A DNA stretch of 64,000 nt from a virus (lineage: Duplodnaviria > Caudoviricetes), in the IMG/VR virus record IMGVR_UViG_3300020577_009322, positions 91,464 to 155,463 of that record; one strand, 5' to 3'. Position numbers and translations under genes: made by a program. The notes under the pieces are model-generated. The model did no database searches, was not told the DNA's origin, and saw only the letters and a program-made list of their open reading frames with translations. Position 1 is the stretch's first letter. Each line of letters begins with the position of its first letter. Shown here one piece after another: positions 942 through 49,388 of this stretch.

Positions 942-1597
942 TGACTCTCAGAGATATATCAAAAAAAATAGATTTAAGATTAAATAAAGGTGCTTCTGGA
1001 GATTATGATAATATCTGGAATTACCAAAAAGAAGAAGCTCTTAATAAAGCTATTAATGAGTGGGTTAGAAGACAAAAGAGAGGAAAGAATAGTACTCAGG
1101 AAGGTGATGAAGAAACTGTAGACAGAATAGACGATTTACAGTTATTATTAAAAACTGAAGTTCTTACCACAAGAGATAAAGGTATATTCAATCAAACAAA
1201 TAAATTACCTATAGATTACTTGTACTTTAAGAGATTAAGTCCATTAGTTAGTAAAGGAATATGTAAAGGGATAAATATAAAATCTCATCTAAGAGAAGAG
1301 GCAAATGTTAACGATTTGATAACAATGCCATCATTTGAATTTGAAGAGACCTTTCATACAATAATAAATAATAAAATACATATCTATCATAATAAAGAAT
1401 TCTCAATAGATAAGGTAGAATTAACATACTATAGAAAACCTAAAGTATATTCCTTTAAGAAATTAGATACAGTATTAGAGTTTAAAGATGATGTTTGTGA
1501 GTTACTTGTAGACGATACATGTAAAATTTTATCATCAGATATTGAATCAATTAATCAAAAAAACTTGGCACAAGAACGAGCCGAATTCAATAATTAA
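941..1597 (+). CDS. crAss-like head-tail connector / ring protein
   Basis: TAATG stop/start overlap at 939-943 favours start 941; LRLNK...EALNKA...DDLQ...LPxDY...YYRKP pattern typical of crAss-like ring proteins. Confidence 0.55.
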   Translation: MTLRDISKKIDLRLNKGASGDYDNIWNYQKEEALNKAINEWVRRQKRGKNSTQEGDEETVDRIDDLQLLLKTEVLTTRDKGIFNQTNKLPIDYLYFKRLSPLVSKGICKGINIKSHLREEANVNDLITMPSFEFEETFHTIINNKIHIYHNKEFSIDKVELTYYRKPKVYSFKKLDTVLEFKDDVCELLVDDTCKILSSDIESINQKNLAQERAEFNN

Positions 1598-1619
1598 TAA
1601 CAAAAATAAATAGAAATTT

Positions 1620-3830: not shown

Positions 3831-3852
3831 TATCTAAAATAAAGAAAAGGTT

Positions 3853-3885
3853 GAGCGTGGTAGGCAGTAGTCTGCCACGCTTTTT
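3853..3885 (+). terminator. Intrinsic terminator
   Basis: agcgtggtaggc-agta-gtctgccacgct hairpin plus T-run. Confidence 0.85.
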
Positions 3886-3934
3886 AATTTAGAGAATTAT
3901 TTTAATTTATCATATTTTTTAACTATATTCTACT

Positions 3935-26608: not shown

Positions 26609-27448
26609 ATGCAAAGAAGATTAAATAAAGAAGAAATAGAAAAATTATGTGAAATGTATGAAACTGGTAAATATACATTTTTAGATTTATCTTCATATTT
26701 TCCAGTAACAAAGGATGCTATTAGAGGTTTATTACTTAGAAGGGGATATAAGGCTAAGTCTCATTCTGAATTGAATAGAAAATATTCACTAAATGAAGAA
26801 TTTTTTGATGAAATAGACACTGAGGAAAAAGCCTATATGTTGGGATTTATATATGCTGATGGATGCAATTATCCTGAATCTACAAGAATTTTACTAGGTT
26901 TGGCAGAAAAAGATAAGGAAATATTAGACAAATTTTCTATTTTATTGGAATCTTCAAGACCATTACAGTATAGAAAATCTGTTGGAACAAGTGCGCCTCA
27001 ATATATCTTAAATATATCTAGCAAGCATATGTCTAATAAATTAATAGAATTAGGAGTTGTTAAAGCTAAATCTTTAATTTTGACTTTCCCTAAATGGTTA
27101 AATAAAGAATTATATCATCATTTCATAAGGGGTTATTTTGATGGAGATGGTTGCATTACTTCTTCATCTCCTAATAGAAATAAAGAAGGTAGAAAATCAG
27201 ATGTTAAATGGAGTATTGTAGGAACTGAAGATTTTGTAATTAACATTCAAAGAATAATGATTGATAAATTAAACTTTAATAAAACCAAAATTAGAAAGCA
27301 TAAAAGTGCATATTATTTGGAATATAAAGGTGGAAAACAAATAGAAACAATAAAAGAATGGTTGTATAAAGATGCAACTATTTTCCTAAAAAGGAAATAT
27401 AATAAATTTATAAATTATGCCAGCAACCTCGCCATTTCAGGGCAATGA
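26609..27448 (+). CDS. Free-standing LAGLIDADG homing endonuclease
   Basis: MLGFIYADGC and FIRGYFDGDGC motifs; overlaps next gene by 32 nt. Confidence 0.92.
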   Translation: MQRRLNKEEIEKLCEMYETGKYTFLDLSSYFPVTKDAIRGLLLRRGYKAKSHSELNRKYSLNEEFFDEIDTEEKAYMLGFIYADGCNYPESTRILLGLAEKDKEILDKFSILLESSRPLQYRKSVGTSAPQYILNISSKHMSNKLIELGVVKAKSLILTFPKWLNKELYHHFIRGYFDGDGCITSSSPNRNKEGRKSDVKWSIVGTEDFVINIQRIMIDKLNFNKTKIRKHKSAYYLEYKGGKQIETIKEWLYKDATIFLKRKYNKFINYASNLAISGQ

Positions 27449-30278
27449 TTATCAAGCTGTATCTCAGTATAGACCATATTCTTTAAGAGTTAACGATATC
27501 TTCAAAGCCAATTCAGCATTAGATGCTTATTGGGATGATGGGGCACGTTCTGTTAAGAAAGCTTATGAGAATGTTGTCGACTTGAAATTACATACGACTG
27601 AAAATAGACAGATAAGAGATCAATTTGTACAAGATGCACAAAAACAGATAACTAAAATATCTTCTATGAATTTAGCTGATCCATCTGTACAGAGACAGGG
27701 AATTGATATATTTAAGCCACTATATAAAGACCAGAATATAGTTGGTGAAGATTATGTTATAAGAAACGGAGAACAAGAGTTAGCTACAGGAGAAACATTT
27801 CGTACAAAGGATGGTGGTAAAAACTATAATCCTTTATCTATAGAAAATATTAAGTTTGAACAGAATTTACTATCTATTGATCCAGCTAAAGGTGGATTGA
27901 ATAAAAGAGATGGATGGAAAGCTATAGTTAATAATCAATCTACCTATACTCCATATACAGATATAAGTAAAGAATACAAGCAAATTCAGGATGCTGTTAA
28001 AGCAGAAGAGATCAAAAATGCATCCATTTCTGGAGATCAATGGTATATTGAGGAAGTTAGTAAGAAAGGTGTAAGTAAGGATAGAATGCAAGCCGCTATA
28101 GAAGAAATGGGAAGTCCTCAGTTAAAAGAACAAATGAGAGTAGAGGGAAGAAATATTTATTATAAGAAGTTATCTGCAGATCCTACGCAAGTTGATGGAT
28201 ATTTCCAGTCTCTTGCAGGTTCTTATTATGATACAAAAATTAATGAATTAAAAAATAGAAAAGCAGAGATAGAATATAATAATTATATGACTCCTGATAA
28301 ACCTGAATATGCAGCTAAGAAGCAATCATATAAGAATACATCAGAGGAGTTAGATAAAACTATTACTTCTCTTGAAACTAAATATAAGCCTGATTATATA
28401 AGAGAATTTAATGGATTATCCAATTTGGATAATCTATCATCTAATATCTCAAAAATAGAGCAGTTATGGCAACAGTCATCTATTGATAATTTATCAGGCA
28501 AGTTAGCTTATGAAACCTCTTCTAGAGAAATAAAAGCTAATCCTGCCAAAATAGCTAAGGAAAATCTGAATCTAGGAATGCAACGTTTACAGGAGACTAA
28601 ACGTCATAATTTGTCTACTGAACAAATTGATCTTCTTAAGAATATAAATAAATCTACAGGTAGTGCTGGAGGTGGAAATAGTAATTTCCTTTTACCTGGA
28701 GGAAATGGAACAGCAAATGTTCCCGTAAATTATAATACACCTTCTCAAAAAGATCTTGATACCTTTAGAAAGGTAGCAGATACAATGCAGAAAGAGTTCG
28801 ATAATAATGATGAACCAATAAGAGAGGCTGCTGTAACAAATATTGTTGGTAATCAAGCCTGGAATTCTATTCAGGATCCGGCAAATGTTGGTAAGAAAAC
28901 AAGTGATGTTTTAGTGGATACTGAAATACAGAAAGCTGCTGAATTCTTAAAAGCGTATAGTGACAAGCATACAGCAGAAGAATTACAAGTTGGTAGAATT
29001 CCTATACTTAATAAACCTATTTTAGTACCAAAAGGATTATCAATTGATCAATATAAAGAGTATTTAGGAAATTTGTCAGCAGCCGGATTTAAAAATATAG
29101 TAGGAAAGCTAGTAAAATCTGATGTAGATTTAACCAGTGATTTAATTGGAAAACTAGCTACAGAAAATGGAGTAGACAAAGCAGCTAATTTTAGAAACAC
29201 ATATAACAATACTTTAAGAAATCAAATGAATTTATCTGCTAATATAACAAATCAAGTAGCGGAAAAATTAGGAGATTATGCATCACTTTTTCGTAATAAC
29301 GGTAAAGTAAACTTAACAGATAGTGAAATTGCAGATGCATACAATAAAGGCATTCAATCTAATAAATTAATTGCTCATTATAATGTAGTAATAACACACC
29401 CTTCAAGTAACCCAAATACAACGGAAGAAAAATATATTCCTCTTACAGAAAAAGAATTTAATGATTATAAGTCTGGAAAAGTAAAAAATTATGACGGGTA
29501 CGTAGTTAGTCGTGTACCATCATTAAGTGAATTTTCTTCTACCATAAGAAGAAAAACGGATCCAGTATATTATCGTCTTAAGATGGAAAATAATCAAGCT
29601 GGAAATCAATATACTTATAATGATAAGAATAATGAAGAGAAGATTGCTGCATTAAATCGTTTTGAGACAATTTCTCCAGATGTACAAGGAACAGATGCTA
29701 CTCCTGATAATAAGGAAATATTTAGTTTTTTAAAGAGTAATGCAAAACATTTGATTGCACAAGAAATAAAGACACCTGGTCCGGATGAAACTTTACCATC
29801 AGTTAAATTTACTATGGAAAACTTTGGAACAGGTAAAGAACAAGAGGAATTAAAGAAAATGGTTGATAAAGTTAACTCTACATGGTTCAGAACTACCGAT
29901 GTTCCTGCAGATTATTTCTCTAAAGGAAACTCTTCGGGATCTGTAAGATACAGGGGAGCCTATGTTTCTTATATTCCATCTAAAATGCCAAATGGTCAAG
30001 AGGCAGGAATATTTATAAGAAATTTATCTACTAGTCCTGCTACTATTGAACCTGATATCCAGGTTAAGAATTTATATGTACTGAGAGATATTAATAAAGG
30101 TCCAGTAGAAGAAAATAAACTATACATAACAAAAGATCTAGTAAAGAAACAATTTCAAGATAGTCATAATAATACTCCTATAGAAGTATATATGCAAAAT
30201 GATGTTGATGAAGTTAATCGTTTTTTATCAGCATTAGTAACCAACATTGAGCAGAAAAATAAAGTAAAAGAAAAGTAA
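27417..30278 (+). CDS. Virion cargo (ejected) protein
   Basis: 953 aa helical protein directly upstream of giant cargo genes. Confidence 0.6.
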   Translation: MPATSPFQGNDYQAVSQYRPYSLRVNDIFKANSALDAYWDDGARSVKKAYENVVDLKLHTTENRQIRDQFVQDAQKQITKISSMNLADPSVQRQGIDIFKPLYKDQNIVGEDYVIRNGEQELATGETFRTKDGGKNYNPLSIENIKFEQNLLSIDPAKGGLNKRDGWKAIVNNQSTYTPYTDISKEYKQIQDAVKAEEIKNASISGDQWYIEEVSKKGVSKDRMQAAIEEMGSPQLKEQMRVEGRNIYYKKLSADPTQVDGYFQSLAGSYYDTKINELKNRKAEIEYNNYMTPDKPEYAAKKQSYKNTSEELDKTITSLETKYKPDYIREFNGLSNLDNLSSNISKIEQLWQQSSIDNLSGKLAYETSSREIKANPAKIAKENLNLGMQRLQETKRHNLSTEQIDLLKNINKSTGSAGGGNSNFLLPGGNGTANVPVNYNTPSQKDLDTFRKVADTMQKEFDNNDEPIREAAVTNIVGNQAWNSIQDPANVGKKTSDVLVDTEIQKAAEFLKAYSDKHTAEELQVGRIPILNKPILVPKGLSIDQYKEYLGNLSAAGFKNIVGKLVKSDVDLTSDLIGKLATENGVDKAANFRNTYNNTLRNQMNLSANITNQVAEKLGDYASLFRNNGKVNLTDSEIADAYNKGIQSNKLIAHYNVVITHPSSNPNTTEEKYIPLTEKEFNDYKSGKVKNYDGYVVSRVPSLSEFSSTIRRKTDPVYYRLKMENNQAGNQYTYNDKNNEEKIAALNRFETISPDVQGTDATPDNKEIFSFLKSNAKHLIAQEIKTPGPDETLPSVKFTMENFGTGKEQEELKKMVDKVNSTWFRTTDVPADYFSKGNSSGSVRYRGAYVSYIPSKMPNGQEAGIFIRNLSTSPATIEPDIQVKNLYVLRDINKGPVEENKLYITKDLVKKQFQDSHNNTPIEVYMQNDVDEVNRFLSALVTNIEQKNKVKEK

Positions 30279-33200
30279 TGCCAGATTTAATAAATCCCAC
30301 ATTTGATACTAAGATAGATCAGCCAGATATTCCAGTAGTTGTTGATACTCAATGGAATAGACCAACTGTTCAAATACCAGATTCTTTAAAACAATCTCAA
30401 GCGTTGTTTCAGGAACCAGGTGATGTATCTTTAATGGACTTTACTAACAAGGTAAATAATCACTTAACTCCAGATCAAGTAAAGAGAAATAATGAAGATG
30501 CTAATATTATGGCATCTCTTACACCTAAAATTACTACTCCATCAAAAGAAGTCCCTTTCAGATATTTCTCATCTATTGATGCGATGCGCTATAAGCAGAA
30601 TAGTAGATTATGGAATACTCAAGGATACAATCCTGAAGTTCCATCTGATATTACAGATGCTATCTATGATTTTCATGAGACTAAATGGGAGTCTATTAAG
30701 AATATTTTACCAAAATTATGGTCAACAACTGCCTTTTCCTTTAAGAATTATTTTGCAGAATATGCAGATACAGCTCGTGCTATTTCACAATTAGATGCTA
30801 ATTTATTACATGATAGTCAGCGTTTTGAAGATTATCAAAACGACCAAAATGAATTAGAAGCATTAAATCCTGACTATAAAACTGATAAAGAAGTTAAATG
30901 GTGGCAGTTAGGTAGAGGGGATTATTGGGAACAATCGGCTTCATCTTTAGGATTTACTATTGGTACAATAGCTGCAGCGGTAACAGAAAATGTTGGTATT
31001 ACACTGGCAACAGGAGGATTAGGAGAATTTGGTGAATTATATAATTCACCTCGTAAAATATATAAAGCAATTTCAGATTATTATTCTTTAAAAAGAGCCT
31101 ATTCTTTAGTAAAAGGTGCCCTAGGTGCTAAGTCACTTGTTGGTAGATTAGGTAATGCAGCTAATATTTGGAGATTAACAAATGGTGCACTATCAGAAGC
31201 TGCTTTTGAAGGAGCAACAATTGCTTATGATTATTTACAATCATATAAACAGAATTACATAGATAAATATGGCAGAAATCCTTCTGAAGAAGAAATGAAG
31301 GGTGCAAAAATGGCAGCTAATTCTATGGCTAATGCCACCATCTTATTTGAGACCCCTTTCTTAATGGCTAGTAATGCTGTTCAGTTTGGTAACTTAATTG
31401 CTCCAAAGACAATTGGAAAATTAGCTAAATTGGGAGAAAAGGGAGCCTTTAAGTTAGGTACCGAGTTGATAGATGGATTACCAAAGACAATAGTACAATC
31501 AACAGAAAATCAAGCAAAAAATATATTCACTAAATATGGAGAGAAAGGATTACATGCTATAAAAAATGCTACATGGGAAGGTACTGAAGAAAGTTATCAA
31601 GCATTGGTAACTACTTCCACTCAAAAGTATTATGGAGATAAGTATAAGAATGGAGATGATGGAGATATAATGAAAGCTCTCGGAGCAGGATATGATTATA
31701 TTACTTCTAATCAAGGTCTAATAGAGTTTTCTGCGGGATTTGCTACAGGAGAAATTTTTCATTTAGCTGGAGTACCTCTACATATATTTGCTAAACCTTC
31801 AGTAAGAACTGCTGAAGAACAAGCTACTTATAAGAAAGCTAATCCAGATGCTACAGATATTGATGCTAAATACAAAACTAATGTATTAAACAATGTCTTT
31901 GGATATGGAATGGATAAGATAAATAAAGAGAGAGAAAAAGCTAATCTGGAAGAAATAGCTAAAAAGCTCAATTCAGTTGATCTTGAGAAATTCTTAAAAG
32001 AAGAAGGATTTTTATCATTAGTAAAAGATAAACAAACTCAGTTTGCTTTAGCAAAGTATTTACAAAATAATGATCAATTTAATATGCAGAATGCTCAAAA
32101 TCTGCAGTTAAATCGTTACTTATATGCTGGTTTGACTACAGGTAAAATTGATTTACAAATAGATAAATTAAAACAATTTGCTAGTCAAGATTTTCATACC
32201 TTGAGTGAATTTTTTGGGTTAGATGAAAATGATTATTCTACTCAGGAAGATAAAGATAAATTTATTAACGGATTTAGAGCATGGACGGCTGAATTAGGTA
32301 ATAAAACTAAAGAATTTGAAAGAATTTTTAATCAACAAAAGGATTCATTTTCTTCTATTATATCTGCAGCAGCTAAGGAACATGATAAAAATTTATCAAT
32401 CAAGAATAGTTTTCTGACCGATCTACAAAGAAAATATTCAGAAGATAATATAGAAAATCTAAGTAAGAAAATATCATCTGATGAGATCACTCAGTTAAAT
32501 GATATGAATGTAGCTACTGTCGCATCACATTTTCGTTTCTATGCTGTAAATGAAGCTGTAAAAGCCTCTGTATTTTCTCAAGTTGGTATGGATGATGCTG
32601 CTAATCGTGCTAAAGATATTGTTAGACAATTAGTTAAGAATGATTCTACTCATACCTTCTATCATGAATTAGGAAGTTTCTTTGATATTGGTTATAGAGA
32701 AAATCGCCTTAAGGACTTACAAAGTAAAGTAGATTTAGCCAAATCATCTAATGATGAAAATTTATCATTATATGAACAGCAGTTAAATTCTTTTAAAAGT
32801 ATGACCAAGAAATTAGATGGTCAATTTAATAGAGCTTCTAACTATAATATAGATAGTGTTGCTAATAGTATTCTTGATTATTTACACAATACTCAAAGAG
32901 AATTAAACAACTTAGATAATTCTACTTCATTAGAGGATCGTATAGCCAATCAAGAAGTGGGACAATATTCTCTTCTTAAAGAATTTGTTAAGTTACAAAA
33001 ATCTCATCAAGAGAATCTTAACCTATATAATTATTTATCTTCTCAGGCTAATAGAGAAGATTATACCCGTTTCCAGTCAAGAAAATTAACAGACTTCTTC
33101 TCTAAAGCTGTAGAGTTAACTGATAATGAGGAAAAAGATAAGCAAGTTAAAGAAGCTGTTGATAATAATGGAGTTCAGGAAGCTGAAGTAGTGAAATCTT

Positions 33201-34213
33201 ATGTTAAAAAGACTGAAGAACCTATTCAAGTTTCTAACACTTTATCAGAAAATACAAAAGTAGAAAGTAAACCTAAATATAATATTGATAATGTTAATGC
33301 ATTAATATTAGCTATTATACAAAAAAACTTTCAGAAGATTTCTGATTTAAAATCAGAGATAGCAAAAATTCCAAAAGATTTAGTAGAAGAAAGAGTTAAT
33401 TTACTTATCTCAAGAGTTGCTACATATAAGAAACCAGAGAATGCTAATAAAATAAAAGAAGAATTTAGAAGGATTTTTGGTGAAGATTTCTTACAGAATT
33501 CTCCTACTCCAAAAGTAGAGGAAAAACCAGCGGTTAAACAACCATCTACTAATCCTTTAGATAAGATTAAGATAACCTTAACTCCACAAGAAGATAAGAG
33601 AGCTGATATAGAAAGAAGAAGACAAGAAGAACTAAATCAAAAAACTGATGCAGGGTATTCAATTATTGCATTGGACTATTTATTTACAGGAGGTAGAGAT
33701 GTAATACAATCTACTGATTATTTATTACAGGCTTTAGTTGGAGGATTTACAAGTGCAGCTAAAGAAATAAATGATATTAGAAATAAATATGCTGATAAGT
33801 TAGGTAATATTAAAGATGATATTAACTCTGATGTTTATAATCAAATGATGTTAGAAATTAGGGATGTTATAAATAAAAATTATAATGACCCTAAAGCAAA
33901 TGAAATTTTTGATAAAATATTAAAAAATGCAACAGGATTTACAACTAGAGAAGGAAATCAAACAAGTATTGAATTAGATAAATTAAATGAACAAAATGAT
34001 TCTAAAATCAATGCTAAATATTATGCAGAATTAGCTGCTTTAGGAGCTACTACAACCACTTCAATTAAACCCGGAGTAGAAGAATTATTCGATGAAAACC
34101 CTGAATTAGCTAATGCTGTATATTCAAAAATATTAACTAATTCTGGACTTTCTTCTGAAAATTTATTATCTTTGCTATTGAAAGATAACTTAATAGAAAA
34201 ACAATGTCCATAA
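30278..34213 (+). CDS. Giant cargo/RNAP polyprotein fragment 1 (Gly/Ala-rich membrane-inserting N-terminal region)
   Basis: SASSLGFTIGTIAAAV, EGTEESYQ; ends ...LLLKDNLIEKQCP*. Confidence 0.7.
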   Translation: MPDLINPTFDTKIDQPDIPVVVDTQWNRPTVQIPDSLKQSQALFQEPGDVSLMDFTNKVNNHLTPDQVKRNNEDANIMASLTPKITTPSKEVPFRYFSSIDAMRYKQNSRLWNTQGYNPEVPSDITDAIYDFHETKWESIKNILPKLWSTTAFSFKNYFAEYADTARAISQLDANLLHDSQRFEDYQNDQNELEALNPDYKTDKEVKWWQLGRGDYWEQSASSLGFTIGTIAAAVTENVGITLATGGLGEFGELYNSPRKIYKAISDYYSLKRAYSLVKGALGAKSLVGRLGNAANIWRLTNGALSEAAFEGATIAYDYLQSYKQNYIDKYGRNPSEEEMKGAKMAANSMANATILFETPFLMASNAVQFGNLIAPKTIGKLAKLGEKGAFKLGTELIDGLPKTIVQSTENQAKNIFTKYGEKGLHAIKNATWEGTEESYQALVTTSTQKYYGDKYKNGDDGDIMKALGAGYDYITSNQGLIEFSAGFATGEIFHLAGVPLHIFAKPSVRTAEEQATYKKANPDATDIDAKYKTNVLNNVFGYGMDKINKEREKANLEEIAKKLNSVDLEKFLKEEGFLSLVKDKQTQFALAKYLQNNDQFNMQNAQNLQLNRYLYAGLTTGKIDLQIDKLKQFASQDFHTLSEFFGLDENDYSTQEDKDKFINGFRAWTAELGNKTKEFERIFNQQKDSFSSIISAAAKEHDKNLSIKNSFLTDLQRKYSEDNIENLSKKISSDEITQLNDMNVATVASHFRFYAVNEAVKASVFSQVGMDDAANRAKDIVRQLVKNDSTHTFYHELGSFFDIGYRENRLKDLQSKVDLAKSSNDENLSLYEQQLNSFKSMTKKLDGQFNRASNYNIDSVANSILDYLHNTQRELNNLDNSTSLEDRIANQEVGQYSLLKEFVKLQKSHQENLNLYNYLSSQANREDYTRFQSRKLTDFFSKAVELTDNEEKDKQVKEAVDNNGVQEAEVVKSYVKKTEEPIQVSNTLSENTKVESKPKYNIDNVNALILAIIQKNFQKISDLKSEIAKIPKDLVEERVNLLISRVATYKKPENANKIKEEFRRIFGEDFLQNSPTPKVEEKPAVKQPSTNPLDKIKITLTPQEDKRADIERRRQEELNQKTDAGYSIIALDYLFTGGRDVIQSTDYLLQALVGGFTSAAKEINDIRNKYADKLGNIKDDINSDVYNQMMLEIRDVINKNYNDPKANEIFDKILKNATGFTTREGNQTSIELDKLNEQNDSKINAKYYAELAALGATTTTSIKPGVEELFDENPELANAVYSKILTNSGLSSENLLSLLLKDNLIEKQCP
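34003..34043 (+). repeat. 41-bp direct repeat, copy 1 (KINAKYxAELAAL)
   Basis: taaaatcaatgctaaatattatgcagaattagctgctttag; 39/41 identical to 38948-38988. Confidence 0.9.
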
Positions 34214-34818
34214 GCGGTATATATAAAATAACAAATATAATAACTCAAGATAGTTATGTTGGTTCTGCTGTAAATTTAAATAGCAGAAAAAGAACTCATT
34301 TTGCCAACATGAATTTGTCAAAACATCCTAATAAACATCTACAAGCATCTTGTAATAAGTACGGTATTGATAATTTTCAGTTTGAAATTTTAGCTAATTG
34401 TCCTAAAGAATATTTATTAAAACTTGAACAGTTTTTTATAGATAGTTTAAAACCTACTTTCAATAAAAGAAAAGAAGTTAATAGTAATTTAGGAATGATA
34501 TTAACAGAAGAACATAAACAAAAGATTTCTGAAAGTAATACTAATAATCCTAAAAGAGTTGGTAGAAAGTTATCTGATGAACATAAAGAAAGTATTAGAA
34601 AATCTCACTTAGGTAAAAGTCTTTCGGAAGAAACCAAACAAAAAATATCTGAAAAGTTTAAAGGTGAAAATCATCCAATGGCTAAACTTAACCAAGAAAA
34701 AGCTAATGAAATTAGAACTTTATTTGGTAAAATGAAAATAAAAGAAATAGCTTCTAAATATAATATTTGTGTAGGAACAGTAGAAAAAATTAAAAGTAAT
34801 AAAATATGGGTTGCATAA
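34204..34818 (+). mobile_element. GIY-YIG homing endonuclease gene with NUMOD3 repeats, splitting the cargo gene
   Basis: SGIYKITN...YVGSA; EEHKQKISE, SEETKQKISE repeats; overlaps both flanking ORFs. Confidence 0.9.
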
Positions 34819-36881
34819 TAAAATATAAAAAACAATCAATACCAGAAGAACAATTTCTTCAATATCTTAATAAGCAAATTGCTATTAATAATTTATTTGA
34901 AACAAATGGTGATTTTGCTTCTAAAATTTATGAAGCTTTAGGGTTTAATAAACAAATAAATGAAATAGCAGATACTAAAAAAGTAGATGAATTTATTAAA
35001 AAATATAAAGATGCTTTACCAAATATTAAAGATGGTAAAACGTTAATATCTCATTTGCAAACTGTTTCTAATAGGAATACAGGAACAACTAAACAGTTTG
35101 CAGATTTAATAATTAAACTATCTAAATCAAATAAAGGATTAGAAAAATTATTAAATAATCCTAATTTATATGCTAAACCAAACAGTGTAGGAGATGAAGG
35201 AGCTTTTCATTGGTCATTGTTTAATAATTTATCTGTTAACAAAATTGTTTTAGAATTAGACCATTTTAAAACTAATACTTATGATGATGTTTTTTTACAT
35301 GAGTTAATTCATAATTTAACCACTCAATTTATTGTAAAAGATTCTGATTTATTTAATCAAAATTTTTATAATAAAGTAAAAGAACTATATTCTGTTTTTG
35401 ATAACCATCTTGAAGCTAACAAAAAAGTAAATGAACCTTTACTTAAATCTACAAAAGATGATGTTAAAAACCTTAAAAGGCTAAAAGAATATTTTGAATT
35501 CTTACCCTCAGATGCTATTCAGCAAGAATTATTGTTTGGTAAAATAGGTAGTCTATCTACCGTTAAAGATGTAAAACTTGATTATAAGTCATTAGAAAAT
35601 AAGTCTAAACAAGATGTTATAAAAGAATTAGAAAGATTATTATCTTTTAAAGAAAGTAGAATACAAGAAATAGAAAAAGGAGATAAAGATTACTATTATT
35701 TTAATTCTAAAACATTTAAACAAGAAAATGTTCTATCTGAATTTTTAGCAACTTTTATAAATGATGCTAACTTTAGGGAACAACTTAAAAACATAGACTA
35801 TAAAAACAATAAATCTATTTTTCAAGCTATTATTGATTTAATATCTGAATTTATAGGATTAACTAAAAATGATAGTTTGTATAATGAATTTGTTTTAAAT
35901 CTTACAAACTTTATTAATAATAATGATTATTCTACAATAGCTGAACAAACACAAAAAACAGCTTATCAAAATAGAATAAATTTACTTGAACAACAAAAAC
36001 AACAAGCTCAACAACTATATTCTCAATATCTACAACAAAATCCTAATGGTAGTATAGAACAGTTTAAAAGTTGGATTAGTAATAGAAACACTTTTGATAA
36101 AGAACTTGCTCAAAAAATACAAGATAAACTTCAAAGACTATATCCTGAAATTAAATTAAATATTACTAATAATCCTATTTGGGAAAAAGGTGATAATGTA
36201 TTTAATCAAGAAGAATATAACAATCAAGTTAATTATAGATTGAAAGCTACTGAAAAAGTATTAGATAATTTAGCTAAAATTAAACAATGGGAGTCTAATA
36301 AATCTATTGATAAAAATACTTTATGGAAAAAAATAGGGGAATTGGGTATTTCTAAACAACAATTAGAATTACTAAAAGAATCTGAAGGAAACACTATAGA
36401 AGAAAAGTTAACAAATTTTGTAGCTAATTATAGTTATACTGTAGAGATTAATACTGCTAAAGAAAATCTTAAAATACCTAAAGTTGATTATCCAAATGTT
36501 AATTCAATATTTATCAATGGAAAAGAATATAAAAAAATAGGAAAAAATAAATATACTTTAGATGGAAATACTATAAACTACGAAAGTCTTCCTGTTTCAG
36601 TTAAAGAATATTTAGATAATATTGAAGTTGAAGAACTTGTTGAGCCAATACTTACTCAACATTACTCTAATCTAACAGTTCCAGGAGGTACTAATTATAC
36701 AGAGAATGAAATAGCTACTCCTGGAATTACACCTTCTATTAAAGGTCATGCTCAATTTGCTACTGATAAAGGATTGATGTGGAGTAGAACAGATGAAAAA
36801 ATACAATATCAAGAACAAGACATTGATAACTTGTTGAAAATTATGGAAAATAGTAAAATTCTTCAAATAAAATGCTCTTAA
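34806..36881 (+). CDS. Polyprotein fragment 2 with zincin metallopeptidase domain
   Basis: HELIH...SEFLA; starts MGC, ends QIKCS*. Confidence 0.75.
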   Translation: MGCIIKYKKQSIPEEQFLQYLNKQIAINNLFETNGDFASKIYEALGFNKQINEIADTKKVDEFIKKYKDALPNIKDGKTLISHLQTVSNRNTGTTKQFADLIIKLSKSNKGLEKLLNNPNLYAKPNSVGDEGAFHWSLFNNLSVNKIVLELDHFKTNTYDDVFLHELIHNLTTQFIVKDSDLFNQNFYNKVKELYSVFDNHLEANKKVNEPLLKSTKDDVKNLKRLKEYFEFLPSDAIQQELLFGKIGSLSTVKDVKLDYKSLENKSKQDVIKELERLLSFKESRIQEIEKGDKDYYYFNSKTFKQENVLSEFLATFINDANFREQLKNIDYKNNKSIFQAIIDLISEFIGLTKNDSLYNEFVLNLTNFINNNDYSTIAEQTQKTAYQNRINLLEQQKQQAQQLYSQYLQQNPNGSIEQFKSWISNRNTFDKELAQKIQDKLQRLYPEIKLNITNNPIWEKGDNVFNQEEYNNQVNYRLKATEKVLDNLAKIKQWESNKSIDKNTLWKKIGELGISKQQLELLKESEGNTIEEKLTNFVANYSYTVEINTAKENLKIPKVDYPNVNSIFINGKEYKKIGKNKYTLDGNTINYESLPVSVKEYLDNIEVEELVEPILTQHYSNLTVPGGTNYTENEIATPGITPSIKGHAQFATDKGLMWSRTDEKIQYQEQDIDNLLKIMENSKILQIKCS

Positions 36882-36882
36882 A

Positions 36883-36914
36883 TTTGGTACATTCAGAATT
36901 TTGTTGTATATTTG
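36883..36914 (+). promoter_or_regulatory. Bacteroidota-type promoter of second GIY-YIG gene
   Basis: TTTG 36883-36886 and TATATTTG 36907-36914; ATG at 36920. Confidence 0.82.
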
Positions 36915-36919
36915 TAACT

Positions 36920-37657
36920 ATGGAGAAATCAGGAATATATCAAATAAGAAATAAAGTAAACGGAAAATCTTATATAGGAAGTTCTACAAGACTTAATAAA
37001 AGATGGAAAAGACATTTAACAGATTTAAAATGTAATGTTCATCATTCTTTAGCTTTACAAAGAGCTTTTCACAAATATGGTTATGATAACTTTGAATTTA
37101 TTATACTAGAAAATTGTGAAGAAAATTTACTCTTGGAAAGAGAGCAATATTATTTAGATAATTTAAAACCTGAATATAATATTTGTAGTATAGCAGGTAA
37201 TTGTTTAGGTATAAAACAATCTGAGGAAACAAAAGAAAAAAGAAAACTATCTAATTCTAAGTATTGGGATTCTGTAGGAAGAAAACATAAAGATAAAATT
37301 AAAGTTATTAGAGAACAAAACTTTTTAATTAAACAACAAAGAGAGCAAAGAAATATACAAATAGTAGAAGATTTAAAATCTGGTATTAGGCAAGATGTAA
37401 TTGCTGAAAAATATAATTTATCTCCTTCAGTAATAACTCAACTTAAAAAGAAACACAATGTTGTAACAAATATTATTTCTAAAGGTAGTAATAATGGATT
37501 TTCTAAACTTACAGAAGAACAAGTAAAAGAAATTAAGCATCTTTTAAAAGATAAAGTAAAGCAGCAAACTATTGCTGATAAATATAACGTAAAACTTAGG
37601 ACAATTAAGGCTATTCAATCTGGTCAAAATTGGAATCATATTAAAATAGAAGAATAA
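36920..37657 (+). mobile_element. GIY-YIG homing endonuclease gene splitting the cargo gene
   Basis: SGIYQIRN...YIGSS; SEETKEKRK; C-terminal HTHs; start reassigned from 36872 to 36920. Confidence 0.9.
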
Positions 37658-37658
37658 A

Positions 37659-40600
37659 ATGGCATGTAAATATATATTTAACGGTATTGAATATAAGGAT
37701 AAACAAACTTTTATAGAAGAGTTTGTAAAACCTAATTTTATAAATCAACCTAAAACTCTTAGGGTTCAAGAATACCAAAGTGATTATTTTCAAAAATTAA
37801 GAAATGATTTTACTTTTAATGGAGAAAAACATTTTATTATCATTGATTCAACTGGTAAGAAACATTATTATATAAATAAAGAAGGAAAAAAAGCTACTCC
37901 TGATAAATACGAAGTCTCTTCTAATGAATATAATAAAGCCTTTGATGCTTTTATAGATGCGGGTGGGGATAACCAATTTCTAGCATTATTACATAAAAAT
38001 GATAATTGGATTACTTTTGGAATTAAAGCTATTATTCAAAATGCAGCAAAGCAAGGTTTTTCTAAAATACTCTTCCCTACTGGTAATACTGCTAGTAAAG
38101 TTGAAGGTCATACTACTTTAGAAGAGTTTAAAAAACAGAAAGAAGATAGAATTAAAGAACTTGAAAATAAACTTAAAGAAATATCTACTGATGAATTTTT
38201 TAATAAAACTTATAAAATAGTTGATAATCAAATTCACAAAAAAGAATCAACTAAAGAATATCCTAATTTAGCATTTACTACAAAAGTTTATAGTGAAAAA
38301 GAAGCTAAAGAAGTGGCTTATGAGTTTATGAGTAAATCTTCTAAACAAGAAATAGCTCAACTTAAACAAGAACTTGAAAGAGTTGAAACAGAAGGATTTG
38401 CTGCATTAAAACCTATTTATAATTTCTATGAAAATACTGTATCTAATATTCTTAAAAAACAAGGATATAATACTAAAGTAGTTACTGATGAATATGGTAA
38501 TACTTGGAATGAGGTGAATATTAATCAAGTAAGAGATTTAGCAGAAGTTTTATTACAACGTAATGAAGCTAATCAAATAATAGGTCAAGCTAATATTAAA
38601 GCTATGACTGTGTTAATTGATGCTATTAATCAGAAACAAGATACTTTACCACATGAATATGCACATCATTATATAGCTTGGTTTAGAAATACACCTATTG
38701 TTCAAGAAGCTATTAAAAAATGGGGTAGTGAGGAAGCATTGGTACAATCTATAGGTGAACAAGTAATTAAACAAAAAGGAGAAGCTTATAATTGGTGGAA
38801 TAATTTTGTTAAGTGGGTAATGAATCAATTTAATTCTTTATCTAAATTACAAAAAGAAGAATTAACTCAAATACTTACCGATGCTTTTTTAACAAGACAA
38901 GATTTAGGTTCTAAACAAGATATAGAAGGATTTAAAACCTTTGTAGATAAAATCAATGCTAAATATGATGCAGAATTAGCTGCATTAGATAAGGAAGAAA
39001 AGAAACCAGTAGGAAAAGAGTTAACCAAGGAAGAAAAAAACTTTATTGATTCAATTAAAGGATTGGATACTAGTAAATTAGGAGTATTTAAAGTATTAGT
39101 AGATACCTTAAATGACCCAGATTCTACTATAGAAGATAAGCAACAGACAATAAAAGAATTGGCTGAACAATTAGCTGATAAAAGAAGTGAAGAGTCTCTT
39201 GGATCAGCTTTAGGACAAAAGGCTTCAGATGCTCTATATAACTATATAGATAAAAATAACATAAAGGTAGAGCCAGTTGTAATTAAAAGTGAACCTCAGG
39301 AATTTGATGAAACAATACCACCTACTACACCAAAAAGACAGGAGGTTGTAGGATATGGTCCTATTGGAGAAAATCTTATATCTATCTTAATTGATAAAGC
39401 CAGAGAGAGTGGTTTATTTACGTTTGATAGTACTAATCCAGAAGAAATAGATAAGATTGAAGATGATCATATGATATTAAAGACAGCTAGTGATCCACTA
39501 GCTCTAAGACACCATATGATCATGGAGAAGTTGGATAGTATTTTTGCTAAAGATACTACTGATAAAGATAACTTTAAAGTTAAATTAGAGTTTATTAATG
39601 ATAATAATAAGGATTGGTTTTATAAGAAAGATGATAGAAAGAGAAATGAAGAAGCTATTATTGCCGTAATAGTAGATAATGATGGAAATTATCATTATTT
39701 TGATAAGATGGGAAATCTAACTACAAAAGAGTTAGGTTCACCATTTGCTGTAGAATATAGGGATCTTTTCTATACTTCAGAGTACTTAACATCCTCTAGA
39801 AACAATCTGGGTGATAAGACTTTAACAACTATTACCCCTAATTATAAAGGAGATAAACATCCTCTTTCTAAGATTTATACATTAATAGGTAATAATATTC
39901 CAGTATATGGTTCTATAAAAGGAATTACAGCTGGAGTATTATCATCACTTAATGCAACTAATTCTTTTAACAATACAACGAAATCCTCCTATAAGACTCG
40001 TCCTTTACAAGAATTATTCGATAAAGGTGAGTTAGATGAACAATTAATATCAGTTAAAGTAGATAAGGGTTTCTATTTAGATTACTCACCGACTAGTGAT
40101 AATCAGATGATTAAAGTTGGTCGTCCTACCGTTATTGATTATAAAACAGGTTTATCTATTCCTCTTATTGGTAGAAAAGTAAAAGATTTAACGTTTAATG
40201 GTCAGAAGATAGATAAATCTTCTCAAATGTATGAGGTTATTGATTGGTTAGATAAAAAGGGAAAAATATCCTTAGATAGTCTACGTCCAGACAAAACTCG
40301 TATTATTGCTACACTTGATGATATAGATAATATTTATCATTTCTTAAGAGAGTTATTATATAGTAAATTATTCTATGTTTCTCAATCTTCACCAGATACT
40401 ATTGAAATAAAGAGAAATATGAATAAAGATAAATCTGCTGTATCTTTATGGGATGCAGAGATTAATTATGTAGATAAGAGAGGTCCACTTATTAGTATTC
40501 CATTTACATCAGCTATAGACGAAAGTGGTAATACTGTTGGTGGTAAAATGGATTATGAGGATTTTCTTAGAGAGAACTTTGAAACAGGTGCTATACAAGC

Positions 40601-43600
40601 TACTATATCAAGTAATGATAAACGTTTTACTAAATTAAATAAAAGAGTAATATTTGGGTTAGATGATAGTTATTCTGATATGTTAAATAAACTGGATAAT
40701 AAAACTATCAGAACAGAGGATATTAAAGTAGGTGATAGATTTTCTCCAAATAAAGACTTAAGTAGACAATATGAGGTTATAGAAGTAGATGAAGATCGTA
40801 TTACATTACATGATGAAGTAAATGATGAAGATAAATCTATTAACGCAAAGGATTTAGTTAAATCTTGGCAGAAAGTTGAAAAGATAGTTGAGCCAGAACC
40901 AATTGTTTATAATGATTCACAAAAAGCAACTATTAAGAAAATAAAGGAATTATCTGTTCCAAAGGAAAAATCTACATATAGAGTTACTACCTTAGCTAGA
41001 CCATCCCAGGTAAAGAAAACATCAGGTTCTTCTTCAACTGTTATGGGAAATGTTATTGATTATATTGCAAAGAATATTTTCTCAGGAAATAAAGTAACTG
41101 CAGAAGATGATATTAGCATGTTAGATCAAAATGGTAGCAAGATCACTGGAAAATTAGGAAGTTATTTCCTTGGAAAAACTAATCTAGAAGATACTATTTC
41201 TAAATTAGTTTCTATTAAAGAATCTCTGGAGAAAGAATATGCATTTGTATCAGGAGTTAGAGTAAGAGATGAAGAAACAAATACAGGTGGTGAAATTGAT
41301 TTGGTATTAATCAATAATAAAGGAGAAGCTATTATTGCTGATTTCAAAACCGCTGGTCAATTATTTGATGATGCTCATTTAGAGCAACATTATAATACAG
41401 GAGTTACTGATAAAGAATATTTTGCTACTCAGGCTTATCTTTATGGATTAATGCTAGAGAAGCAAACTGGTATTAAAGTTCTATCAGAAAAAATTGTTAT
41501 TGGATTACCTATAAGTTTTTCAGAAGGAAAAAATAATATCTATGAAAGCAAGATAAAGGAAATAAAAAAGAAGGATAATTATATAGTCAGTTTATCAGAT
41601 GCTAATATATCTGGTTACTATAAAGTTGATAATAAACCATTTACATCTGTTAAAAAAATTGTTGATAAATATAATGAAGTAATTAAACAAAATGCTATCA
41701 CTCCAGAAGAAGGGTTAGATGCATTAACTGGAAAGAAAAAGAGAGGAAAGCCTTTAGAAATGAACATTAAAGGTATAATGGGAATAACTGCTTCAAATGA
41801 AGCTTTACAGAGAGCTATTGATCATATGTCTTCGATGTTTGGAGAGGAATTTATTGTTACATTTTCTAATACTATGAATAAATTTAAGTATGGTGAATGG
41901 ACAACTAATGGAACTATTCTTTACAAAAATGCAATCATTGATACACCTTATCACGAAGGATGGCATCAATTTAGTCAGCTTTTTCTTACTCGTGCAGAAA
42001 AATTAAAGATGTATAAATCTTTAAGGGATCAGGCTATTTCGTATATAGATAGAGATGGAGAAAAAAGAAATACATCTGATCATTATGATCTGGAAATAGA
42101 AGAATTTTTAGCTGATGAATGGGTAAAGTATGTAAAATCACCATCATCTTATAAATTTCCTGGAAAATATAAAGGAATTCTAGGATTCTTTAGAGATCTA
42201 TGGAGATTAATAAAAAACTTCTTCTCCTCTACCCATTCACCAGAAATATTGTTTAAGGATTTATATAATGGTAATCTGACAAATTATACCAAGGATATTA
42301 ATAATGCTTTATGGGGTAATCTTACTTCATCTATTTTAGATAGTGAGGGTAATGAAATATTAAATCATGTTCGTACAAACTTATATATACAAACTACTTC
42401 TTATTTTATTGGAGAAGTATTGAGAGAAAATAATAAATCATTCTCTTGGTTAAGACAGAATAGTAAAAATGAGTATATAAAAGATAATATTTTTGATAAA
42501 TTTGTTGATTTACAGGCTGATAGATTATCTAAATTATCACAGGAATCAAATTTATTACATAAAGTTTTAACAGATCCAGATAGTGTTCTACAAAAAACTG
42601 TTAAGGAAAAGAATATTCCAGAACAGGAGGTTACCAGATATATTGCTCAAATACAAGAAATAGAAAATTTATTAGCTGATGAAAATAATGCCTTTAATAG
42701 GTTTTATGATTATTATCTAAAGAACTCTGATATCGATACCTTAAGAGAAGGTAATGATAGAGAAGAAATATTAGATCCTCTTGATACTGAAGAAATTAGA
42801 GAAATACTAGAAGAGGATGGAGAAACAGAAGCACAAGAATACGATGAAGATACACCTTATCAAAAAGGATATAATGAAGGACCTAATGAGAAAAATCCTT
42901 TTACAAAAGCTAGTAAGGAAGTACAGGATTTTCATAGAACTATGCCTATAGTAATAGGTTATGATGAAGATAATAATCCTACTTACTTGACAAATGAATT
43001 AGGAATTCCATTAACTTATGATTATGCTAGCATTTTTAATATGACCAAAAGTATATTATCCGGAAAAGATAATATAGAAGATATTATAGCAAAATTAAGT
43101 GATCCTTATGTAATTAAAGTATTCCCACAAGCTAGATATATTAAGGAAAAACTACAAGGGTACATAACAAACACTACTCCAGAAAACTTCTCATTTCTAC
43201 AGAGATATGTGAAGATCATGGGAATGCCGGAAGTTGATAATAAGAAACTAACTGTTAATGAGGATGCTTTTAAATATGAAGGTTTAGATAAAACCTTAGT
43301 GAAAGTTAGAAGTTTATCACGTACAGGAGAGATATCTGATATAAATCAATGGACATATCAATTCAAACGTCCATCTGACGAAAGAGAAGCTATTAAATTA
43401 GATGATACATTATCCCCATATGATATATTTTCTTCTAACAATATCCTGTTTAATGTAGAAGGTCAATTATGGCTTAATCCATTTGTAGATTATTCAGTGA
43501 TTAAAGCCAATATGACAAGTAAGAAATTCTTATCATTAATGGGAATAGAATTAAATGATACGTTTTGGGATAATCCTTATTCAACACCATTTGCTGATAA

Positions 43601-49385: not shown

Positions 49386-49388
49386 TTT

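What the first reader, a model, noticed from the sequence alone, without database searches (positions are those of the whole stretch)
33602..38988. Nested cassette insertion in the giant RNAP/cargo gene bounded by 41-bp direct repeats
Seen: KINAKY(Y/D)AELAAL is encoded twice (34003-34043 and 38948-38988, 39/41 nt identical). Recombination between the copies would delete 4945 bp (both HEGs, fragment 2 and two zincin domains) and fuse fragment 1 to the RNAP ORF in register, since both copies encode the same peptide. The insert has further boundary-like motifs (ADIERRRQEEL, IKPGVEELF, QQKQQAQQLYSQYL, LGSKQDIEGFK) and looks more A/T-biased than its flanks. Inference: short conserved peptide-coding homology arms let effector domains be swapped into an ejected polyprotein, Russian-doll style.
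Basis: partly seen in the sequence, partly recalled or inferred. Interest (0 to 1): 0.75.

Follow-up and report, generated by a model that had tools for sequence, protein, structure and literature searches.

The report
Motif-bracketed cargo cassettes in phage protein
The 41-base repeat is real: it is two copies of a widespread "end tag" which, with a matching "start tag", frames swappable protein modules inside giant phage virion proteins, so this phage's 5.4-kb cargo region is a patchwork shared piecewise with unrelated phages and cut into three genes by two selfish endonuclease genes.

Summary
Observation confirmed. 34003-34043 and 38948-38988 match at 39/41 nt and are in frame in F1 and F3. 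This is the only such pair in the window, against 0 in 20 shuffles.

The literal reading, one nested insertion scarred by its own direct repeat, is not supported. The two copies are no more alike than copies in unrelated phages.

The general idea holds. INAKYDAELAAL is an end bracket found in 105 IMG/VR stretches behind about 90 different cargos. It usually lies 32-355 aa after a start bracket, ADIERRRQEEL. Third-codon identity among copies is 0.78, against 0.52 expected.

The variable slot is 33602-38988, which has low GC3. An orthologue has the slot empty. Another holds a 50-aa cassette between the same brackets.

Blocks inside the slot match different phages at 83-91% nt, with edges on the listed motifs. 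Two free-standing GIY-YIG endonuclease genes split the polyprotein at Cys-tail/Cys-head junctions that recur elsewhere. No read-level empty allele was seen.

Cargo function, RNAP identity and the recombination mechanism remain inferred. This scan noted similar bracketed cassettes with other motifs on other DNA.

The parts
30278..34213 (+). F1, 1311-aa first fragment of the giant virion protein. Residues 1-1080 are backbone; residues 1109-1311 are cargo.
   Evidence: ORF. P0002 residues 1-1071 align to F1 1-1080 at 60%.
33602..33634 (+). Start bracket ADIERRRQEEL, the left edge of the variable slot.
   Evidence: Coordinates. There are 69 IMG/VR stretches with this peptide and 60 unique contexts. 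Codons are skewed (Ile ATA 92% vs 42% background), and 42/60 are followed by an end bracket 35-356 aa later. The longest backbone contigs listed for X21 and X2 end at 33630. The GC3 drop starts here.
33635..34003 (+). Cargo A, an all-helical module of unknown function.
   Evidence: Window 33597-34046 is 90.7% nt identical to L003 and 33589-34046 is 90.6% identical to L091. It is also present in L182. The AF2 model has low confidence: pLDDT 51.7, helices only.
34003..34043 (+). End bracket copy 1, KINAKYYAELAAL: the first arm of the 41-nt repeat.
34064..34123 (+). IKPGVEELFDENPELANAVY motif, the left edge of the block shared with L212.
   Evidence: Window 34064-36028 is 86.1% nt identical to L212 over 1972 nt. 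L113 matches 34063-34123 at 87%.
34124..34213 (+). Cys tail of F1 (..NLLSLLLKDNLIEKQCP*). The F1 stop codon lies inside the 5' end of HEG1.
   Evidence: The same tail occurs in L212.
34204..34818 (+). HEG1, a free-standing GIY-YIG homing endonuclease gene (204 aa).
   Evidence: Pfam GIY-YIG 33.1 bits (cut-off 22.6) and NUMOD3 46.8 bits. PHROG homing endonuclease at 5e-30. No Rfam intron. A 204-aa counterpart sits at the same junction in L212, and there is none at the homologous head in L213.
34806..36881 (+). F2 (691 aa). It holds a Cys head MGCIIKYKK.., a degenerate LFETNGDFASKIYEALGF motif (34893-34946), an HExxH cassette (HELIH at 35298), QQKQQAQQLYSQYL (35991-36032), a domain front half (TQHYSNLTVPGG..GHAQFATDKG) and a Cys tail ..LQIKCS*.
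   Evidence: L111 matches 34894-36028 at 83% nt and then carries different cargo. The HExxH cassette is about 80% aa identical at different positions in P0008-P0013.
36872..37657 (+). HEG2, a free-standing GIY-YIG homing endonuclease gene. Its likely start is the ATG at 36920.
   Evidence: Pfam GIY-YIG 51.6 bits. It is 33% identical to HEG1. L119 carries the same tail-HEG-head arrangement: 80% nt over 36265-38155.
37659..38947 (+). N-terminal cargo of F3: Cys head MACKYIFNG.., the back half of the split domain (RVQEYQSDYFQK..), a coiled coil, an HEYAHH module and LGSKQDIEGFK (38904-38936).
   Evidence: 66 IMG/VR loci carry this domain. In most it is contiguous with the F2 C-terminal part in one ORF. 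AF2 gave pLDDT 70 and no clear fold match.
38948..38988 (+). End bracket copy 2, KINAKYDAELAAL: the second arm of the repeat and the right edge of the variable slot.
   Evidence: It is 42/42 nt identical to L003 6988-7029. The listed X21 backbone contig resumes at 38954, and depth spikes here.
38989..49385 (+). Conserved backbone of F3, a putative virion RNA polymerase. SDFDVDK lies at 46788-46808 (its DFDVD at 46791-46805).
   Evidence: It is 43-56% identical to P0002-P0004. G3043-K3050 and YRIPTNNNNF are invariant in six homologues. No PDB sequence match.

Best explanation
Region 33602-38988 is a variable cargo slot in a giant, virion-module polyvalent protein. The slot sits between a conserved N-terminal part (F1 1-1080) and a conserved C-terminal part (F3 551-3908, RNAP-like).

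Cargo modules are framed by a start bracket (ADIERRRQEEL) and an end bracket (INAKYDAELAAL). Further seams are IKPGVEELF..EALGF, QQKQQAQQLYSQYL and LGSKQDIEGFK. The 41-nt repeat is simply the end bracket of two successive cassettes: small cargo A, then a large composite cargo.

The bracket DNA is conserved at synonymous sites across otherwise unrelated phages. It therefore offers 30-40 nt of near-identical sequence at which homologous recombination between co-infecting phages can exchange, add or delete cassettes while keeping the reading frame. This step is inferred.

Independently, two paralogous free-standing GIY-YIG homing endonuclease genes have entered the slot. Each comes with a portable gene junction: a Cys-ending tail, a stop, the HEG, a start and a Cys-bearing head. 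These cut the polyprotein into F1, F2 and F3.

Shown: the repeat, the bracket family and its nucleotide-level conservation, sharp-edged high-identity blocks shared with distant phages, slot variation between orthologues, HEG identity, and presence/absence of the HEGs.

Inferred: that recombination uses the brackets as homology arms, that the proteins are packaged and ejected, and what the cargo does.
For: - Repeat and frames.
- End bracket: 105 IMG/VR stretches, 93 unique contexts with diverse upstream cargo.
- 75/108 end brackets have a start-bracket-like motif 32-355 aa upstream.
- 69 stretches carry the start bracket; 42/60 unique contexts have the end bracket downstream.
- Codon skew in the end bracket: Ile ATC 67% vs 11% background, Ala7 GCA 84% vs 34%, Leu9 CTA 51% vs 11%.
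- Mean pairwise identity is 0.91 in the motif against 0.39-0.40 in the 30-nt flanks. Third positions are 0.78 against 0.52 expected, with a maximum of 0.56 in 200 simulations.
- Module A is 90.7% nt identical to L003, whose backbone part matches F3 at only 31% aa with no other nt match. The edges fall on the brackets.
- Window 34064-36028 is 86% nt identical to L212. Window 34894-36028 is 83% identical to L111, which has different cargo beyond QQKQQALQLYSQYL.
- The HExxH cassette is about 80% aa identical at five different positions in P0008-P0012.
- Orthologues: P0002 has the slot empty; P0003 has a cassette of about 50 aa between the same brackets.
- GC3 is 0.075-0.125 inside the slot against 0.16-0.19 outside.
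- In three metagenomes, depth rises from about 31 to 250-650 at the brackets. The longest backbone contigs listed for X21 end at 33630 and resume at 38954. Many different loose ends leave 33590 and 38989. Some contigs join an end bracket to a start bracket through 25-27 nt.
- HEGs.
Against: - No recombinant or empty allele of this phage was seen. X21, X1 and X2 (three studies, 2019-2025) carry the insert at about 100% identity.
- Only 15 of 96 joints were displayed, and contigs drop rare variants.
- Nucleotide conservation of the brackets could reflect recent common descent or selection on mRNA rather than use as homology arms.
- Copies are not phylogenetically independent.
- Many BLAST edges inside 36650-38540 are just conserved and variable parts of one domain, not recombination points.
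- The second end bracket has no start bracket of its own, so the pairing rule is not strict.
- Pfam finds no polyvalent-protein domain in F1, F2 or F3 themselves.
- The AF2 model of module A is too poor to show whether the two brackets pair.
Confidence: 0.68

Rival explanations
1. The brackets are protein-level signals only. They could be cleavage sites for a maturation protease (perhaps the HExxH cargo itself), or a helical clasp that lets any domain be inserted without disturbing the chain. Their nucleotide conservation would then be a by-product of recent spread, and cassette exchange would use any available homology or illegitimate joining.
For: - Both brackets are predicted helical, at low confidence.
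- The start bracket is usually preceded by a conserved (I/V)E(A/S)KK, and the end bracket is usually followed by E plus a low-complexity linker, like a processing site.
- HExxH modules sit in the cargo.
- The peptide is invariant over about 90 contexts.
Against: - Third-position identity of 0.78 against 0.52 expected is not explained by selection on the peptide.
- High-identity blocks stop within a few nt of the motif edges.
- No protease family was recognised.
- This reading is not exclusive of the main one.
Confidence: 0.2
2. One reading: the 4945 bp are one nested insertion, and the two 41-bp copies are its paired ends. They would have been created or used by that single event and be poised for precise excision.
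For: - The repeat is unique in the window and in register.
- The interval is A/T-richer than the backbone.
- A circle excised between two end brackets in a donor could integrate at a single end bracket by one crossover (inference).
Against: - The copies are no more alike than copies from unrelated phages: 34/36, the mode of 93 comparisons.
- Low GC3 and the orthologue breakpoints start at 33602, not 34003.
- The interval is a mosaic whose blocks have different nearest relatives: L212, L116/L213, L119, L122/L123 and L113.
- No 4945-nt skip appears among the displayed joints.
Confidence: 0.08
3. Homing-endonuclease-driven gene conversion, not the brackets, explains the mosaic. Double-strand breaks made by the GIY-YIG enzymes are repaired from co-infecting phages and drag flanking cargo along.
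For: - The two largest shared blocks contain a HEG: L212 34064-36028 with HEG1, and L119 36265-38155 with HEG2.
- The same tail-HEG-head unit occurs in at least 7 other loci and at two different positions of one domain.
- HEG presence/absence is seen at the same head in L212 versus L213.
- Co-conversion of flanks is established for T4 free-standing endonucleases (general knowledge).
Against: - The module A exchange (L003) has no HEG called next to it: the four called genes are 77-2693 aa, and the only Pfam hit on record is a weak AAA_33 hit.
- A GIY-YIG motif scan of all fetched loci found HEG genes only in loci fetched with the F3 N-terminal cargo, none in those fetched with the end bracket. 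The scan needed an ATG start and missed one known case.
- Slot variation in P0002 and P0003 involves no HEG.
Confidence: 0.15
4. Chance similarity or low-complexity A/T-rich sequence.
For: The window has 31% GC, and many weak repeats of 69-83% identity are listed.
Against: There are 0 comparable pairs in 20 shuffles. The same 36-42 nt recur in over 100 viral contigs.
Confidence: 0.01

Closest known systems
Polyvalent proteins of phages and conjugative elements (Iyer, Burroughs, Anand, de Souza, Aravind 2017, PMC5512222)
   Same: These are giant multidomain proteins of phages that combine many enzyme-like domains in shuffled orders. Proteins carrying the same cassettes as F2 and F3 bear ART-PolyVal (PF18760), Zeta-toxin/AAA_33, PD-(D/E)XK and SprT-like domains. 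The paper raises 'recombinational variability' for one kinase system.
   Different: The paper's text holds no mention of linkers, shuffling, homing endonucleases or crAss. The paired start and end brackets with nucleotide-level conservation, and the HEG-borne gene junctions, are not described there. No searched paper holds the motif strings. F1, F2 and F3 themselves hit no Pfam polyvalent domain.
Polymorphic toxin systems: the CdiA VENN motif, the Rhs PxxxxDPxGL motif and their orphan cassettes (general knowledge)
   Same: A short conserved peptide-coding motif marks the point at which variable domains are swapped by homologous recombination, keeping the frame.
   Different: Those systems have one motif before a single C-terminal toxin plus an immunity gene, and they are bacterial. 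Here cassettes are internal, framed on both sides, arrayed in tandem, lack immunity genes and lie in a phage virion protein. I make no toxin assignment.
Free-standing GIY-YIG homing endonucleases of T4-like phages (Seg and Mob proteins; the nrdA split by mobE in Aeromonas phage Aeh1; general knowledge)
   Same: These are GIY-YIG plus NUMOD3/HTH genes that lie between genes, show presence/absence between relatives, and can split a host gene into two translated pieces.
   Different: Here the HEG sits in a stereotyped junction (a Cys-ending tail and a Cys-bearing head). That junction recurs with and without a HEG and appears at different positions of the same domain.
Virion-packaged RNA polymerases of crAss-like phages (phi14:2 gp66) and N4 vRNAP
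   Same: A giant ORF in the virion module, with an invariant DFDVD and an upstream R-x-P motif like the two-barrel RNAP catalytic loop (reading from general knowledge).
   Different: There is no detectable sequence match to any solved structure, by single sequence or by profile. The cargo slot and its brackets are not reported for those enzymes in the papers found.

Membership tests
Polyvalent proteins (Iyer et al. 2017) | Many (2-15) distinct domains in one polypeptide of a phage or conjugative element | tested here: met
   F1+F2+F3 carry at least five separable modules in a phage virion gene block. Homologues of 1250-5800 aa carry the same modules in other orders.
Polyvalent proteins (Iyer et al. 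2017) | Presence of the family's signature domains (ART-PolyVal, LPD families, zincin-like MPTase and others) | tested here: inconclusive
   No Pfam hit in F1, F2 or F3. ART-PolyVal is at its gathering score in L113, which shares the cassettes. PF18760, PF06414 and PF13671 are precomputed on F2 homologues. The LPD1/5/23/39 results are Atlas leads only.
Polyvalent proteins (Iyer et al. 2017) | Delivered into the host cell with the DNA | not testable with these tools
   Only the gene context is available: tail fibre and virion structural PHROGs nearby.
Free-standing GIY-YIG homing endonuclease | GIY-YIG catalytic domain plus a DNA-binding module | tested here: met
   HEG1: GIY-YIG 33.1 bits and NUMOD3 46.8 bits. 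HEG2: GIY-YIG 51.6 bits and HTH_23 25.6 bits. All are above the cut-offs. PHROG homing endonuclease hits at 1e-27 to 5e-30.
Free-standing GIY-YIG homing endonuclease | Not inside a self-splicing intron or an intein | tested here: met
   No Rfam match in 33000-40000 at E up to 1. The HEG ORFs overlap or abut the flanking ORFs, leaving no room for an intron core, and stop codons end F1 and F2.
Free-standing GIY-YIG homing endonuclease | Presence/absence polymorphism at a homologous site | tested here: met
   The HEG2 site is contiguous in most of 66 loci and split with a HEG in L119, L140, L154 and others. The HEG1-type head has a HEG in L212 and none in L213.
Free-standing GIY-YIG homing endonuclease | Site-specific cleavage of the HEG-less allele | not testable with these tools
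   This needs an enzyme assay.
Zincin metallopeptidase | HExxH motif | tested here: met
   HELIH at F2 165-169 and HEYAH(H) at F3 332-337. The motif is kept in homologues.
Zincin metallopeptidase | Recognisable zincin family or fold | tested here: inconclusive
   No Pfam hit and no PDB sequence hit. The Atlas structural rows Peptidase_M76 and SprT-like reach TM 0.40-0.46 by the target only. Fold searches of the F3 N-terminal model were dominated by its coiled coil.
Two-barrel virion RNA polymerase of crAss-like phages | DxDxD metal-binding loop in a conserved giant ORF of the virion module | tested here: met
   SDFDVDK is invariant in six homologues.
Two-barrel virion RNA polymerase of crAss-like phages | Detectable homology to a characterised enzyme (phi14:2 gp66) | tested here: inconclusive
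   phmmer and a six-sequence profile found no RNAP among PDB sequences. The fold was not tested.
Group I intron or intein as carrier of the HEGs | Intron RNA core, or an in-frame intein with splice-junction residues | tested here: not met
   No Rfam intron. In-frame stops precede both HEGs, and the residues at the junctions do not fit intein termini.

The most novel reading that the evidence does not exclude
Environmental phages of this group may share a community-wide 'plug standard' for virion-delivered proteins. A start bracket and an end bracket would be kept identical at the DNA level because they serve as homology adapters, so that any framed domain can be moved between unrelated phages in frame. 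A second layer would be a portable gene junction (Cys tail, stop, optional GIY-YIG endonuclease, start, Cys head). It can be dropped into linkers to cut a polyprotein into separately made pieces that still carry the terminal signals needed for packaging or chaining.
Probability: 0.3. Interest if true: 0.8.

Novelty: new variant of a known kind. Interest (0 to 1): 0.6.

Why it matters
Polyvalent phage proteins are known to be shuffled, but how domains move in frame is not described. Here the seams are explicit. A paired start and end bracket is conserved at the nucleotide level in more than 100 viral contigs. Sharp-edged blocks of 83-91% nt identity are exchanged between phages whose backbones are 30-55% identical in protein. 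Orthologous slots are empty or filled differently.

If the brackets act as homology arms, they give a testable rule for how phages renew the proteins they deliver into hosts. They would also be a natural design for in-frame domain swapping. The brackets also explain why metagenome assemblies of such phages break at these points.

Tried and rejected
- Megablast of 32000-41000 against 50,697 GenBank phages found no match.
- A single-sequence IMG/VR scan with F3 444-1247 found no relative.
- Rfam on 33000-40000 found nothing, so the intron reading was dropped.
- Pfam and PHROGs on F1, F2 and F3 found nothing useful.
- PDB sequence searches with F3, F2 and a six-sequence profile found nothing relevant.
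- AF2 of module A without an alignment gave pLDDT 51.7, too poor to test whether the brackets pair.
- AF2 of the F3 N-terminal cargo with 42 sequences gave pLDDT 70. Foldseek and VIA-wide returned only coiled-coil look-alikes, best Z 8.1.
- Self-BLAST of the ORFs found no tandem duplication of cargo; only HEG1 and HEG2 are paralogues.
- Read evidence for the precise 4945-bp deletion: none among the 15 joints shown, but 81 were not shown, and contigs drop rare variants.
- X3 showed cargo pieces at 98-100% identity without backbone cover. The tool states that a hole proves nothing, so I do not use this as evidence of transfer.
- Intein and split-intein readings of the Cys junctions were rejected. 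Stops precede the HEGs, there are no HN/C junction residues, and the head motif is never internal.

Full report
**Setting.** The window is bases 91464-155463 of a 155,463-bp IMG/VR virus record with direct terminal repeats. The region lies in a virion gene block: tail-fibre and virion-structural PHROG hits flank it. On the + strand the genes run without gaps:
- a 953-aa ORF
- F1 (30278..34213, 1311 aa)
- a GIY-YIG gene, HEG1 (34204..34818)
- F2 (34806..36881, 691 aa)
- a second GIY-YIG gene, HEG2 (36872..37657)
- F3 (37659..49385, 3908 aa)
- a 2170-aa ORF

**The observation.** The 41-nt repeat is real: 34003-34043 versus 38948-38988, 39/41 identical, with similarity ending abruptly on both sides. 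Both copies are in frame and encode KINAKY(Y/D)AELAAL. A crossover would delete 4945 bp and fuse F1 to F3 in register. No other 41-mer pair with at most 2 mismatches exists in the window, and none arose in 20 Markov shuffles. The two enclosed endonuclease genes pass Pfam thresholds for GIY-YIG plus NUMOD3 or HTH and match PHROG homing-endonuclease families. 'Zincin' rests on two HExxH motifs only; no family or fold search confirmed it.

**What the repeat is.** A back-translated INAKYDAELAAL pattern hits 105 stretches in IMG/VR, on contigs of 12-117 kb.
- In all of them the peptide lies inside a very long ORF.
- The 30 residues before it differ in about 90 ways.
- What follows is usually Glu plus a low-complexity linker, in several cases followed by KADIE(R/K)RRQEEL.
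- 75 of 108 copies have an ADIE(R/K)RR-like motif 32-355 residues upstream.
- Conversely, exact ADIERRRQEEL occurs in 69 stretches. It is mostly preceded by (I/V)E(A/S)KK and followed by diverse cargo. In 42 of 60 unique contexts the end motif follows within 35-356 residues.

So the two peptides are a start bracket and an end bracket of small cassettes. In the window the start bracket is at 33602-33634, and both repeat arms are end brackets.

**Nucleotide-level conservation.** Codon choice in the end bracket departs strongly from that of the same ORFs:
- Ile ATC 67% vs 11%
- Ala-3 GCT 92% vs 57%
- Ala-7 GCA 84% vs 34%
- Leu-9 CTA 51% vs 11%

The start bracket behaves alike: Ile ATA 92% vs 42%. 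Mean pairwise identity of 91 unique-context copies is 0.91, against 0.39-0.40 in the adjoining 30 nt. At third positions it is 0.78 against 0.52 expected, with a maximum of 0.56 in 200 simulations.

Copy 2 of the window is 42/42 identical to a copy in L003. Its identity to the 93 copies peaks at 33-34 of 36. The window's own two copies (34/36) are therefore not specially related. That argues against a scar of one local event.

**Evidence that cassettes move.**
1. Window 33597-34046 (start bracket, cargo A, end bracket) is 90.7% nt identical to L003 and 90.6% to L091. The L003 protein P0007 matches F3 at only 31% aa, and no other nt match exists.
2. Window 34064-36028 is 86% nt identical over 1972 nt to L212, from IKPGVEELF to QQKQQAQQLYSQYL, including HEG1. 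Window 34894-36028 is 83% identical to L111, which carries a different, P-loop-like cargo beyond QQKQQALQLYSQYL and a different N-terminus before EALGF.
3. The HExxH cassette (F2 29-417) occurs at about 80% aa identity at residues 185, 1, 596, 899 and 607 of five different giant proteins. In a sixth (66% aa) it is flanked by QQAQQLYS on both sides.
4. Further blocks have other nearest relatives: L116 and L213 for 36090-36467, L119 for 36265-38155, L122 and L123 for about 37970-38524, and L113 for 38469-38950.

Many edges between 36650 and 38540 only mark conserved and variable parts of one domain, so I do not count them.

**The slot in orthologues.**
- P0002 (4534 aa) aligns to F1 1-1080 and then, 109 residues later, to F3 551-3908. 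The slot is empty and no brackets are present.
- P0003 (4539 aa) has ADIEKRRQEEL, about 50 residues, then KINTKYDAELAAL. These align to the window's start bracket and to its second end bracket.
- GC3 is 0.075-0.125 from 33602 to 38948 and 0.16-0.19 outside.

The unit that varies is therefore 33602-38988. The first repeat arm is internal to it.

**Metagenomes.** Contigs of four runs were laid on 30000-42000.
- In X21 the backbone has depth about 31.5. The longest backbone pieces listed end at 33630 and resume at 38954, inside the brackets.
- Depth rises to 250-650 at 33208-34009 and 38822-39222 in X21, with parallel rises in X2 and X3.
- Many different loose ends leave 33590 and 38989.
- Several contigs join an end bracket to a start bracket through 25-27 nt.
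- Joints from 33623-33637 to 38944-38957 with unknown content between them are other cassettes with the same brackets.
- X1 (wastewater, 2019) and X2 (river, 2025) hold backbone and insert pieces at about 100% identity, so this arrangement persists.
- No 4945-nt skip was among the 15 joints shown; 81 were not shown.

**The endonucleases.** There is no intron and no intein. The F1 stop codon lies within the HEG1 5' end, and F2 starts within the HEG1 3' end.

The domain made of the F2 C-terminal part plus the F3 N-terminal part is contiguous in most of 66 IMG/VR loci. It is split, with a GIY-YIG gene in the gap, in L119, L123, L140, L154, L156, L164 and L170, at two different linker positions.

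Every such HEG lies between a tail ending ..(I/L)xC(x)* and a head such as MAC(K/Y)xxYKGxxY..EEF. That head was found 15 times, always at residues 2-5 of an ORF. Junctions without a HEG have the same Cys signature; an example is F3 ..EIKC* followed by MAYCN... L213 has the F2-type head without a HEG and L212 has it with one.

**Comparison with the literature.** The polyvalent-protein paper contains no mention of linkers, shuffling or homing endonucleases. No searched paper holds the motif strings. This scan has reported bracketed cassettes with other motifs in tape-measure and tail proteins of other phages. The theme therefore recurs, but this motif pair was not met there.

**Limits.** Cargo functions are unknown. 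The RNAP assignment rests on an invariant SDFDVDK and its context, without a match to solved structures. 'crAss-like' comes from earlier notes and I did not test it. Packaging, ejection, cleavage and the recombination mechanism are inferred.

Noticed in passing
window 34195-34213, 34806-34815, 36867-36881, 37659-37670, 49377-49400; also L003, L004, L005, L111, L212: Giant ORFs of this phage group end in ..xC(x)* and the next ORF starts M-x(0-3)-C. In the fetched loci, 76/198 ORFs of at least 600 aa have Cys in the last 3 residues, against 41/427 smaller ORFs. Cys in residues 2-5 occurs in 46/112 against 30/372. 14 of 14 best F2 homologues start this way. The meaning is unknown: a disulfide chain, a packaging signal or an endonuclease target are possibilities.
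   Followed up: partly
window 37659-37740; L119, L123, L140, L154, L156, L164, L170, L172, L063, L091: The head motif C..Y.(K/N)G..Y...E(E/D)F occurs 15 times, always at residues 2-5 of an ORF and never internally. In the AF2 model it forms a small beta-hairpin plus helix (pLDDT 76-89 for residues 1-40).
   Followed up: partly
window 34064-34123 and 34893-34946: The HEG1 junction cassette is flanked by two diverged copies of one motif (LFDENPELANAVY and LFETNGDFASKIY). In L111 and L031 this motif is a single uninterrupted ELF..NPELAN.VYEALGF.
   Followed up: partly
window 36654-36800 and 37968-38540: A widespread two-part domain of unknown function (TQHYSNLTVPGG..GHAQFATDKGIGWFRSD, then RRILEVQSDLFQKGR..VLFPTG.TA.K.EGH) is present in at least 66 IMG/VR contigs. 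It has a hypervariable linker where the junction cassettes land. It has no Pfam, PDB or fold match.
   Followed up: partly
L004 2380-3216: The relative with the empty slot has a gene with a faint LAGLIDADG_3 hit two genes upstream of the giant ORF. At the matching place in the window there is a 279-aa ORF (26609..27448) that I did not examine.
   Followed up: no
window 30000-42000 in runs X1, X2, X21: The same phage, with pieces at about 100% identity, is present in wastewater (2019), river (2025) and a 2025 sample of unrecorded origin. Other partial holders are freshwater, sludge and digester metagenomes, so the habitat looks like fresh or waste water rather than gut.
   Followed up: partly
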